DNA of 64,000 bases from assembly GCF_009914755.1 (NCBI RefSeq), contig NC_060933.1; one strand, 5' to 3'. A model generated the notes under the pieces. That model did no database searches and was not told the origin of the DNA. It worked only from the letters and a program-made list of their open reading frames with translations. Positions within the stretch are counted from its first letter, which is position 1; each line of letters opens with the position of its first letter. Below, piece after piece: positions 9,217 to 11,039 of this stretch. The DNA is from the human T2T-CHM13v2.0 reference genome, Homo sapiens. A program made the translations under genes and the position numbers.

Positions 9217-11039
9217 GCAGTAGGCTTACGATGGCAATGGGCAGTGCCAGCAGTGGCTGTGGCATCCTGGAGCAGGAAGATTTGGTGCATTTCTAGTGCA
9301 GCATAGGCCAGAGTGACGTTTCTGACATTTGGGATGCTACAGCACTGATAGAAGTGGATGATAAAGCTGTGGCTTCATTTAAACAGGCTCTAAAGAATGA
9401 TGACATTTGTGAAACCTCAGATAAACCAAAAAGCATGCCTAATAGAAAACCTGCTAAGAAGCATAAAGGCCAAAAAAAGAATACTGTAACTTTCTTGAAG
9501 TAGTGGAAAGTTGGGGACAAATGTCCTGCCATTTGGTCAGAAGACAGCTGCATTTACTCTGCTACCATTGCTTCAGTTGATATGAAGAGAGAAAGCTGTG
9601 TTGTGATTTACACTGGATATGGAAATAGAGAGGAGCAAATCTGTCTGATCTACTTTCTTCAACCTCTGTAGCTAATAATATAGGACAGAATGCTCAAAAG
9701 AATGAAAATGAAAGTCAAGATTCAATGGATGAAAGTGAGAACTCCAGGTCCTGGAAACAAACCATTTAGCATCAGGTCAGAAGCTACTCCATGGAATTCT
9801 GAGACCACGAAAGCCAGGTCAGGTCTCAAATTCAGTAGCCCACCACCCACACCACCCTGCTTCCCCTCATGCTTGCTGCCTCCATTTCCTTCTGGACCAC
9901 CAAAAATTCCCCCACCACCTCCCACAGGTCTAGATTTTCTTGATGATGTTAATGTTTTATGAAGTATGCTAATCTCTTGGTACATTAAGTGGCTATCATA
10001 CTGGCTATTATACAGGGCTCAAGCAAAATTAAAAAGAGGGAGAGTGCTCACGTTCCAATTAATGAGTAAATATGCCATTATTATAAAAGTGAATCTTACT
10101 TTTGTAAAATTTTATGGTTTGTGGAAAGCAAATGTCTTGGAATATTTTTAAATTTAAAATGTTAAAAAGTTGAAAGGTTAATGTAAAACAGTATTAAAGA
10201 CATTCTGATACCAAAACTATTAGATAAAAGGTTGAGCTACATCCCTACTAGAATTCTCATGGTATCAAAGTATCACCTCACCAAAAACTTACTGGTTGGT
10301 TGTGTGGAAAAAATATACTTTTACAATAAAGAGTTCCGTAGGCTCTGATGACATTTTACATCACTAGTAGTCAGAAAAAACAGACATGTTTTCTGACCTG
10401 TGATGCGGTATGACCTACGCATACTGCACTGGTACACTCTATGACCTGTGAAGTGCTCTGGTCAAAAAACTTTAACTGAAATTTAGTCAGGCCTTTAGAT
10501 CTAATTTCCTGTTTGCAGGAGATGCTAGGGATAGAGCAACAAGTTAAATGACACCACTAAAGAAACGATCAGACAGATCCAGAATATAGAATGTTATAGA
10601 AGATAACTGGCCTCATTGCTTCAAAATATCAGTGTTGCCAAAAATAAAAATAAAAAAAGGTGGAACGGGTAACTCTTCCAGATTAAAAGCTACTTAAGAG
10701 ACATCATAACCTAATGCAATGTGGAATCTTTGATTAAACCTAAGGGGGCTGAGAAAATTTGAATATGGACTAGATTTTGAATACTAGACCATTATTGCTA
10801 ATTTTATGAGCTGTGAGAAGGATGTTGTAGTTTATAAAAGAATGCCTTCATTTGCATACTGATTTAAGAATGAGGTGTTATAGTGTCCCTTAAAATGTTT
10901 TAAAATGGTTTTGCAAAATGCGCATGAAGCATATATGGCAAAATGTTAATGAATCTAACTGGTGTGTATATGGGTGTTCAATGTGCTATTTTTTCCTATT
11001 TTCTGTATGTTTAAAAGTATATATATATTTTTAAATTAA
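9217..11039 (+). pseudogene. SMNP: SMN (survival motor neuron) retro-pseudogene, semi-processed: exons 1-7 joined, intron 7 retained, exon 8 present
   Basis: ATGGCAATGGGCAGT at 9231. SMN-like segments [24 protein letters not shown] (Tudor), [14 protein letters not shown] and SGYHTGYY (YG box) are joined without introns 1-6. Premature TAG at 9294-9296, further stops and frameshifts. Degenerate TSD AAAGGTAAAACTG (9204-9216) / AAAGGCAACACTG (11040-11052). Confidence 0.95.
10066..10518 (+). other. Retained SMN intron 7 within the retrocopy (453 nt, GT...AG)
   Basis: After the exon-7-like ..GTGCTCACGTTCCAATTAATGA the sequence reads gtaaatatgccattattataaaagtgaatcttacttttgtaaaa and ends ctaatttcctgtttgcag|GAGATGCT. 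This is colinear with SMN1 intron 7 and the exon 8 start as recalled. Confidence 0.9.

What the first reader, a model, noticed from the sequence alone, without database searches (positions are those of the whole stretch)
10015..10560. SMN retrocopy retains intron 7: fossil of an intron-7-retaining SMN mRNA
Seen: exons 1-7 are joined with no introns, but exon 7 (10015-10065) is followed by a complete 453-nt GT..AG intron (10066-10518) and then exon 8, all inside one TSD pair. Established: the SMN stop codon lies in exon 7, so retaining intron 7 leaves the protein intact and adds no downstream exon junction, and exon 7/intron 7 splicing is central to spinal muscular atrophy. Inference: a polyadenylated, exon-7-including, intron-7-retaining SMN isoform existed in the ancestral germline and was captured by L1 machinery. 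That would mean the inefficiency of this splice event long predates SMN2.
Basis: partly seen in the sequence, partly recalled or inferred. Interest (0 to 1): 0.8.

Follow-up and report, generated by a model that had tools for sequence, protein, structure and literature searches.

The report
SMN pseudogene that kept intron 7
This is an old, dead retrocopy of the SMN gene that lost seven introns but kept intron 7, and a second human SMN retrocopy on chromosome 4 kept the same intron, so an intron-7-retaining SMN mRNA was probably copied back into early primate DNA twice.

Summary
Window 9217-11039 (+) is a retrocopy of SMN. Exons 1, 2a, 2b, 3, 4, 5, 6 and 7 are joined exactly. Exon 7 (10015-10065) is followed by a colinear, complete intron 7 (10066-10518, GT..AG kept; 453 nt against 445 in SMN1), then exon 8 to about 11039. 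RefSeq's SMNP stops at 10069, so about 970 nt of the copy are unannotated.

It is a semi-processed pseudogene, a known class. The reading frame is dead.

New here:
- The only other SMN retrocopy in this genome (chr4:186369474-186373265) also keeps intron 7. It starts at the same base, 14 nt before the ATG, but has unrelated flanks.
- Polarising with 20 mammalian SMN proteins shows no shared pseudogene history. It places both copies before the anthropoid ancestor.
- A 140-nt chrX fragment is a later retrocopy of a transcript from the chr9 locus.

Intron-7-retaining SMN mRNA is already known in human cells (PMC5854547).

Interest is moderate: a new member of a known kind.

The parts
9204..9216 (+). 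5' copy of the putative target-site duplication (AAAGGTAAAACTG)
   Evidence: Matches 11040-11052 at 11 of 13 positions and abuts the first retrocopy base. It is weak on its own: 126 of 1000 shuffles did as well.
9217..9311 (+). Exon 1 part of the retrocopy. It starts 14 nt before the ATG (9231-9233).
   Evidence: The chr4 copy starts at the same base.
9312..10014 (+). Exons 2a (9312-9383), 2b (9384-9503), 3 (9504-9700), 4 (9701-9813), 5 (9814-9902) and 6 (9903-10014), joined with no intron sequence.
   Evidence: Stops fall at SMN1 codons 22, 91, 261 and 284, and there are frameshifting indels of 1, 2, 38, 5 and 1 nt.
10015..10065 (+). Exon 7 (51 nt). It has C at position 6, the stop codon homologue at 10060-10062, and lacks the Leu codon of human and Old World monkey SMN.
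   Evidence: C-termini of other mammals.
10066..10518 (+). Retained intron 7, complete, with GT..AG kept.
   Evidence: Colinear with chr5 71408783-71409227. 418 aligned sites carry 66 differences. Several indels are shared with the chr4 copy, including +25 nt near 10261 and -23 nt near 10466.
10075..10089 (+). Homologue of the intron 7 silencer region (ISS-N1). It has T where the human proximal hnRNP A1 motif has G.
   Evidence: Alignment printed. Motif and pig state are from PMC4043917 passages. The 10-24 intron position of ISS-N1 is recalled, not from a call.
10519..11039 (+). Exon 8 (3' UTR) up to the SMN mRNA 3' end. Only about 5 A remain of a poly(A) tail (11038-11042). An ATTAAA lies at 11035-11040.
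11040..11052 (+). 3' copy of the putative target-site duplication (AAAGGCAACACTG)
10922..11050 (+). Stretch that was later transcribed and retrocopied to chrX:67005782-67005921.
   Evidence: 94% identity over 142 columns. The match runs past the retrocopy end into the chr9 flank and is followed by an A-rich tail. A perfect 17-nt duplication flanks it on chrX.

Best explanation
Window 9217-11039 is a semi-processed (partially processed) pseudogene of SMN. A capped, polyadenylated SMN mRNA had introns 1, 2a, 2b, 3, 4, 5 and 6 removed and exon 7 included, but intron 7 unspliced. It was reverse-transcribed and inserted at 9p, most likely by L1 target-primed reverse transcription, in the primate stem lineage before the anthropoid ancestor. 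The copy has decayed neutrally since and has no coding function.

Intron 7 lies behind the stop codon, so the retained-intron RNA encodes full-length SMN and could persist as a cytoplasmic poly(A) RNA available to L1.

The same RNA form (same 5' end, same retained intron, same 3' end) was captured a second time, probably independently, at 4q35. Later a + strand transcript running through the 3' end of the chr9 copy was itself retrocopied to chrX.

Shown: the anatomy of both copies, their separate insertion sites, the lack of shared pseudogene history, and their branching before anthropoid-specific SMN changes. Inferred: L1 as the agent, germline or early-embryo origin, cytoplasmic location of the template, and absolute ages.
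For: - Exon joins and the colinear intron 7. No other SMN intron or flank is present.
- The frame is dead: 4 stops plus frameshifts.
- Genome-wide, SMN exon 3 occurs only at SMN1, SMN2, chr9 and chr4 (5 matches at 4 loci). Exon 7, intron 7 and exon 8 occur at the same four loci plus the chrX fragment and one weak repeat hit.
- The chr4 copy has exons joined, intron 7 at chr4:186371061-186370641 with GT..AG, and later Alu and other insertions. Its flanks do not align with the chr9 flanks.
- The 1018-nt insert between exons 6 and 7 of the chr4 copy has no intron 6 sequence. Bases 1-596 have no hit in the SMN locus, and 716-1014 is an Alu.
- Non-CpG branch counts are star-like. Coding, n=788: SMN1 35, chr9 67, chr4 84. 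Intron 7, n=378: 26, 21, 36. Exon 8, n=490: 38, 26, 53.
- There are 17 amino-acid positions where both copies differ from human. At 12 of them the copies carry the state of other mammals. At 5 they share a state seen in no SMN; I read three of those five as CpG-type changes from the codons. Simulated independent decay gives a mean of 4.5 to 7.9 such coincidences.
- The copies have D64 and T145, where Theropithecus, Macaca and Cebus have G and I. chr4 has G204, where they have R. Both lack the extra Leu codon of catarrhines. Both carry or derive from A86, as primates and colugo do.
- Intron-7-retaining SMN mRNA occurs naturally at low level and encodes full-length protein (PMC5854547 and PMC5716214, passages read).
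- Semi-processed pseudogenes are a recognised class (PMC4151081 and PMC5470649, passages read).
Against: - The L1 hallmarks are eroded. The TSD match (11 of 13) was reached by 126 of 1000 shuffles for chr9, and the chr4 candidate (9 of 10) by 301 of 1000. Only about 5 A remain of the chr9 tail.
- Independence of the two captures is not proven. They share the exact 5' end. Indels in exon 7, intron 7 and exon 8 where both copies differ from SMN1 number 18, against 7 chr9-only and 12 chr4-only (my tally, leaving out the misaligned tail beyond 11024). No outgroup DNA was available to polarise non-coding changes.
- The synonymous share on the SMN1 branch (14 of 35) is not significantly above that of the copies (44 of 164; Fisher p=0.15).
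- Dating conflicts remain. chr4 has D181 like anthropoids. P180 in both copies would put them before the one strepsirrhine sequence, but that sequence (P0097, 'SMN-like') may itself be a retrocopy model.
- Branch lengths differ between the copies in non-coding sequence (47 against 89).
- Absolute ages rest on recalled primate substitution rates.
Confidence: 0.8

Rival explanations
1. There was only one capture. One retrocopy was made from an intron-7-retaining mRNA, and the other is a retrocopy of a transcript of the first, made very soon after. Intron 7 retention would then have been sampled once, not twice.
For: The chr9 locus demonstrably produced a transcript that was retrocopied to chrX, so copy-of-copy events happen here. 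The two copies share the same first base and 18 indels relative to SMN1. A transcript ending in the first copy's own poly(A) signal and tail would leave no flank signature at the 3' end.
Against: A transcript of a retrocopy would need to start exactly at its first base, and no 5' flank is shared. The shared-derived protein changes (5) are no more than parallel decay predicts, so any shared pseudogene phase was very short. The non-coding SMN1 branch (64 of 868) is not longer than the mean of the copies (47 and 89). The chrX copy does carry donor flank; neither SMN copy does.
Confidence: 0.2
2. The template was not a stable isoform but a transient, incompletely spliced nuclear pre-mRNA. Intron 7, the last intron, was simply not yet removed when the RNA was picked up by chance.
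For: Partially processed retrocopies of other genes exist. [quoted passage not shown]
Against: The RNA was cleaved at the normal exon 8 3' end, and it was sampled in 2 of 2 SMN retrocopies with the same intron. Retention does not expose the RNA to nonsense-mediated decay, because the stop is in exon 7. That trans-mobilised RNAs are cytoplasmic is established L1 biology (recalled), not tested here.
Confidence: 0.15
3. When the copies were made, the ancestral SMN gene had exon 7, 'intron 7' and exon 8 as one terminal exon, and the intron arose later.
For: Both fossils carry the stretch. At intron position +5 of the 5' splice site SMN1 has G, chr9 has A and chr4 has T.
Against: Intron 7 is discussed as a spliced intron in human, pig and mouse (PMC4043917 passages), so it predates the primate-rodent split. 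The copies are younger than that split: non-CpG branches are 5-10% and both carry the A86 state. GT and AG are present in both copies.
Confidence: 0.03
4. It is a DNA-level (segmental) duplicate of part of the SMN gene rather than a retrocopy.
For: None beyond the presence of one intron.
Against: Seven of eight introns are precisely absent, and no SMN flank or promoter is present. The copy ends at the mRNA 3' end.
Confidence: 0.01

Closest known systems
Semi-processed (partially processed) pseudogenes and retrogenes, such as mouse preproinsulin I and the TMF1 insertion in CYBB (PMC4151081 and PMC5470649, passages read)
   Same: It is an RNA-derived copy on another chromosome with most introns gone and one kept. 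It ends at an mRNA 3' end and is probably L1-mediated.
   Different: Here the kept intron lies in the 3' UTR, behind the stop codon. The same intron is kept in both retrocopies of the gene. The copy is dead, unlike preproinsulin I.
The natural and antisense-induced 'exon/intron 7-SMN' transcript of human cells (Flynn et al. 2018, PMC5854547; Singh et al. 2017, PMC5716214; passages read)
   Same: The exon and intron make-up at the 3' end is the same: exon 7 included, intron 7 retained, exon 8 present, full-length protein encoded.
   Different: That is a present-day RNA seen at low level in cultured cells. This is a genomic fossil that predates the anthropoid ancestor. It was made before the human-type proximal hnRNP A1 motif of the intron 7 silencer existed (PMC4043917).
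RefSeq SMNP (survival of motor neuron 1, telomeric pseudogene), annotated at 9223..10069
   Same: It is the same locus and the same parent gene.
   Different: The annotation stops 4 nt into intron 7. The retrocopy continues for about 970 nt through intron 7 and exon 8.
Pig Smn1 processed pseudogenes on chromosomes 2 and 13 (PMC4043917, passage read)
   Same: They are SMN retrocopies in another mammal.
   Different: They are described as copies of mature mRNA. Whether they hold intron 7 could not be seen: the supplementary alignment of exon 7 (file 2) held no text, and file 1, the pseudogene alignment, was not opened.

Membership tests
Semi-processed L1-type processed pseudogene | Sequence matches the transcribed part of a parent gene located elsewhere | tested here: met
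   Nine colinear BLASTN blocks to SMN1 on chr5, while the window is on chr9.
Semi-processed L1-type processed pseudogene | Most introns precisely absent (exon-exon joins) | tested here: met
   Seven of eight introns are absent, with joins at 9311/9312, 9383/9384, 9503/9504, 9700/9701, 9813/9814, 9902/9903 and 10014/10015.
Semi-processed L1-type processed pseudogene | At least one parental intron retained, colinear and complete | tested here: met
   Intron 7 is at 10066-10518 with GT..AG. It spans 418 aligned sites with 66 differences.
Semi-processed L1-type processed pseudogene | Poly(A) tail at the 3'-most transcribed base | tested here: inconclusive
   Only AAAAA remains at 11038-11042, overlapping the TSD candidate. 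The chr4 copy keeps an A-rich run after the mRNA end.
Semi-processed L1-type processed pseudogene | Flanking target-site duplication | tested here: inconclusive
   An 11 of 13 match abuts both ends, but 126 of 1000 shuffles did as well. For chr4, 301 of 1000 shuffles did as well.
Functional retrogene | Intact open reading frame | tested here: not met
   Stops at SMN1 codons 22, 91, 261 and 284, plus frameshifting indels.
Segmental (DNA-level) duplicate of SMN | Other introns, the promoter or gene flanks present | tested here: not met
   Window 9000-11300 has no match to SMN introns 1-6 or flanks.
Retrocopy of a retrocopy (the chrX fragment relative to chr9 SMNP) | Carries donor-specific substitutions and donor flank, with its own tail and TSD | tested here: met
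   chrX:67005782-67005921 follows chr9 rather than SMN1 (96% to the chr9 copy, 83% to SMN1). It includes chr9 flank, an A-rich tail and a perfect 17-nt TSD.

The most novel reading that the evidence does not exclude
In stem primates the main germline or early-embryo SMN mRNA began 14 nt upstream of the ATG and kept intron 7. Removal of this 3'-UTR intron would then be a regulated, often-omitted step (a detained-intron type of dosage control), much older than SMN2 and older than the human intron 7 silencer. Both surviving human retrocopies sampled this form, and none sampled the fully spliced mRNA. The two copies also give a dated read-out of ancestral intron 7, showing which splicing elements (for example the G of the proximal hnRNP A1 motif) arose later on the human lineage.
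Probability: 0.3. Interest if true: 0.65.

Novelty: new member of a known kind. Interest (0 to 1): 0.45.

Why it matters
SMN exon 7 and intron 7 splicing is the target of spinal muscular atrophy drugs, so the history of this region is of real interest.

- The two fossils show that an exon-7-containing, intron-7-retaining, normally polyadenylated SMN mRNA existed in the primate stem lineage and was sampled in 2 of 2 surviving retrocopies. That argues the form was not rare where retrocopies are made.
- They provide two independent, roughly dated snapshots of ancestral intron 7 and exon 8. These can polarise human-lineage changes in known splicing elements without relying only on distant species.
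- Practically, the RefSeq SMNP model is about 970 nt too short. Intron 7 probes, primers or antisense oligonucleotides have diverged matches (76-84% identity) on chr9 and chr4.

None of this changes the understanding of SMA itself.

Tried and rejected
- DNA-level duplication: rejected.
- Intron 6 remnants in the chr4 copy: rejected. The 1018-nt insert between exons 6 and 7 is unrelated repeat sequence plus an Alu.
- An alternative upstream leader exon for the shared 5' end: the 11-nt leader has no convincing match in 34 kb of the SMN1 locus. Nine hits with up to 2 mismatches were found, none of them upstream of the ATG.
- TSD significance: the sliding shuffle test was weak for both copies, so TSDs are not used as main evidence.
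- Synonymous versus non-synonymous test of the SMN1 branch: not significant (p=0.15).
- Age order of the two copies from protein states: inconclusive. Position 8 favours one order and position 181 the other.
- Supplementary alignment of exon 7 in the pig paper: file 2 held no text. File 1, the pig pseudogene alignment, was not opened, so those supplements may bear on whether pig pseudogenes keep intron 7.
- Literature on this locus. SMNP + pseudogene + survival motor neuron gave 0 papers. SMN + processed pseudogene + intron 7 gave 3 papers, none on the human copies. SMN1 + processed pseudogene gave 24 papers, of which 18 were listed and none was about them by title or abstract. The retrocopy terms combined with survival motor neuron showed no SMN paper among the 20 listed of 291. 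Within this library, then, I found nothing in print on intron 7 in SMNP or on the chr4 copy.
- Naming the old repeat family under SMN exon 8: not possible, because no repeat library is available here.

Full report
**What is there**

The window is T2T-CHM13 chr9:20336001-20400000. I read 9000-11300 and compared it with the SMN gene on chr5, fetched from the same assembly. The chr5 copy at 71.38-71.41 Mb has C at exon 7 position 6, so it is SMN1. Its exons, joined at GT..AG boundaries, translate to a 294-residue protein with the stop inside exon 7.

BLASTN of the window against 34 kb of SMN1 gave nine colinear blocks. Exons 1, 2a, 2b, 3, 4, 5 and 6 abut one another in the window although they lie up to 13 kb apart on chr5. 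A single unbroken block, 10011-10731, equals chr5 71408724-71409423, that is exon 7, all of intron 7 and the start of exon 8. The rest of exon 8 follows at 10750-11023.

A three-way MAFFT alignment fixes the parts:
- Exon 1 runs from 9217, which is 14 nt before the ATG at 9231, to 9311.
- Exon joins fall at 9311/9312, 9383/9384, 9503/9504, 9700/9701, 9813/9814, 9902/9903 and 10014/10015.
- Exon 7 is 10015-10065.
- Intron 7 is 10066-10518 (453 nt against 445 in SMN1 of this assembly), with GT and AG kept.
- Exon 8 runs from 10519 to about 11039.

No other SMN intron or flank is present. RefSeq's SMNP ends at 10069, four bases into the intron, so intron 7 and exon 8 of the copy are unannotated.

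**It is a dead retrocopy**

The frame has stops at SMN1 codons 22, 91, 261 and 284 and several frameshifting indels.

The hallmarks of L1 insertion are eroded. AAAGGTAAAACTG (9204-9216) matches AAAGGCAACACTG (11040-11052) at 11 of 13 positions, and both abut the copy. However, 126 of 1000 shuffles gave as good a match somewhere in the flanks. Only about five A remain of a tail.

The case for retroposition therefore rests on three things: the seven precise intron losses, the end at the mRNA 3' end, and the unrelated flanks.

**A second copy with the same intron**

Searching the whole assembly with the chr9 copy, with SMN1 exon 7 to exon 8, and with SMN1 exon 3 found SMN sequence at only four loci, plus a short chrX fragment. 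The four are SMN1, SMN2, chr9 and chr4:186369474-186373265 (minus strand).

The chr4 locus is another retrocopy. Its exons are joined. Intron 7 is present at chr4:186371061-186370641 with GT..AG. Exon 8 is present, and later Alu and other insertions interrupt it. The 1018-nt insert between its exons 6 and 7 is not intron 6: bases 1-596 have no match in the SMN locus, and 716-1014 is an Alu.

The chr4 flanks do not align with the chr9 flanks. Both copies begin at the same base, 14 nt before the ATG. So 2 of 2 SMN retrocopies in this genome keep intron 7.

**Are the two captures independent, and how old are they?**

Non-CpG differences sort into three branches:

| Region | Sites | SMN1 | chr9 | chr4 |
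|---|---|---|---|---|
| Coding | 788 | 35 | 67 | 84 |
| Intron 7 | 378 | 26 | 21 | 36 |
| Exon 8 | 490 | 38 | 26 | 53 |

The pattern is star-like. The SMN1 branch is shorter in coding sequence, as expected for a gene under constraint.

To polarise the changes I fetched 20 mammalian SMN proteins. There are 17 positions where both copies differ from human in the same way. At 12 of them the copies carry the state of other mammals, so the change lies on the human lineage. At 5 (G24S, K41E, G106S, T167M, G206R) they share a state seen in no SMN; I read three of those as CpG-type changes from the codons. Simulated independent decay of two copies gives on average 4.5 to 7.9 identical non-synonymous coincidences. 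There is therefore no sign of a shared pseudogene phase.

Against full independence:
- The 5' ends are identical.
- There are 18 indels where both copies differ from SMN1, against 7 chr9-only and 12 chr4-only (my tally).
- I had no outgroup DNA to polarise non-coding changes.

For dating:
- The copies have D64 and T145 where Theropithecus, Macaca and Cebus have G and I.
- chr4 has G204 where those species have R.
- Both lack the extra Leu codon of the catarrhine C-terminus (CSHSLN against CSHFN-type in other mammals).
- Both carry or derive from A86, like primates and colugo.

They therefore branched from the SMN lineage after the split from rodents and before the anthropoid ancestor. Non-CpG branches of 5-10% fit that. 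Converted with recalled primate substitution rates, which come from no call here, I guess an age of some 45-75 million years.

Pig, mouse and human all have a spliced intron 7 (PMC4043917, passages read). The intron therefore already existed when the copies were made, and its presence in them is retention.

**How it most likely came about**

A polyadenylated SMN mRNA with all introns but the last removed was used in trans by L1. Retention is harmless to this RNA because the stop codon lies in exon 7. The retained-intron RNA encodes full-length SMN with a longer 3' UTR (PMC5716214 and PMC5854547, passages read). [quoted passage not shown]

Semi-processed pseudogenes are a recognised class; examples are preproinsulin I and a TMF1 insertion (PMC4151081; PMC5470649).

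What is less ordinary is that the same intron was kept in both copies. That argues the retained form was not rare where retrocopies arise, or that the two events are linked.

**What the fossils say about splicing elements**

Both copies have C at exon 7 position 6. At the proximal hnRNP A1 motif of the intron 7 silencer (human cagcat, pig catcat; PMC4043917) both copies have T at the third base, like pig. The human G is therefore younger than the copies.

At intron position +5 of the 5' splice site SMN1 has G, chr9 has A and chr4 has T. The ancestral base cannot be told from this.

The fossils thus record retention of intron 7 in an RNA that included exon 7, at a time before the human silencer context existed. 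They do not measure splicing efficiency. They also do not bear directly on exon 7 skipping, which is the SMA defect.

**Seen in passing**

chrX:67005782-67005921 is 94% identical to window 10922-11061. It follows the chr9 copy rather than SMN1 and runs past the end of the retrocopy into chr9 flank. It stops about 10 nt after an ATTAAA at 11035-11040, continues with an A-rich tail, and is flanked by a perfect 17-nt duplication. It is a 5'-truncated retrocopy of a + strand transcript of the chr9 locus, made much later.

An old interspersed repeat family covers the last 33 nt or so of SMN intron 7, including the 3' splice site, and the first 360 nt or so of exon 8. All 7 loci fetched for it matched at 65-74%. 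A second family covers the end of exon 8, with 3 of 3 loci matching.

**Novelty**

My searches of the held library found nothing on intron 7 in SMNP or on the chr4 copy. The kind of element is known and the RNA isoform is known. The double capture, the dating and the chrX grandchild are new details. Interest is moderate.

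Noticed in passing
L016 (chrX:67004001-67008000), match at chrX:67005782-67005921; window 10922-11061: A 140-nt fragment 94% identical to the 3' end of the chr9 SMN retrocopy plus chr9 flank. It has an A-rich tail and a perfect 17-nt target-site duplication. It is a 5'-truncated retrocopy of a + strand transcript of the chr9 locus, probably using the ATTAAA at window 11035-11040.
   Followed up: yes
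L015 (chr4:186366001-186376000), copy at chr4:186369474-186373265, minus strand: A second SMN retrocopy that also keeps intron 7. It is interrupted by a 297-nt Alu in exon 3, a 1018-nt insert between exons 6 and 7, and two inserts of about 290-300 nt in exon 8. It has stops at SMN1 codons 15, 83, 154 and 190.
   Followed up: yes
window about 10440-10805 and 10923-11024; SMN1 chr5:71409195-71409585 and 71409687-71409772; loci L018-L027: Old interspersed repeat families (65-77% identity between copies) underlie the 3' splice site of SMN intron 7, the first 360 nt or so of exon 8, and the end of the 3' UTR. Exon 8 may therefore be largely repeat-derived. The family could not be named without a repeat library.
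   Followed up: partly
window 10261-10285 and near 10466; SMN1 intron 7: Relative to both retrocopies, human SMN1 lacks 25 nt and has 23 extra nt in intron 7. The extra stretch sits between two copies of a 10-nt direct repeat. These are probably human-lineage indels in intron 7 that arose after the copies were made.
   Followed up: partly
window 9217; chr4:186373265: Both retrocopies begin at exactly the same base, 14 nt before the ATG. This is far downstream of what I recall, from no call, as the annotated human SMN1 transcription start. It could mark an ancestral start site or a common stop of reverse transcription in the GC-rich leader.
   Followed up: partly
proteins P0072 (Macaca nemestrina 'SMN-like', 307 aa) and P0097 (Nycticebus coucang 'SMN-like', 309 aa): These predicted proteins carry many unusual substitutions and odd N-termini, and P0097 lacks the exon 5 region. 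They look like gene models built on other, lineage-specific SMN retrocopies.
   Followed up: no
window 9223-10069 (RefSeq SMNP): The curated pseudogene model ends 4 nt into the retained intron and misses about 970 nt of the retrocopy (intron 7 and exon 8).
   Followed up: yes
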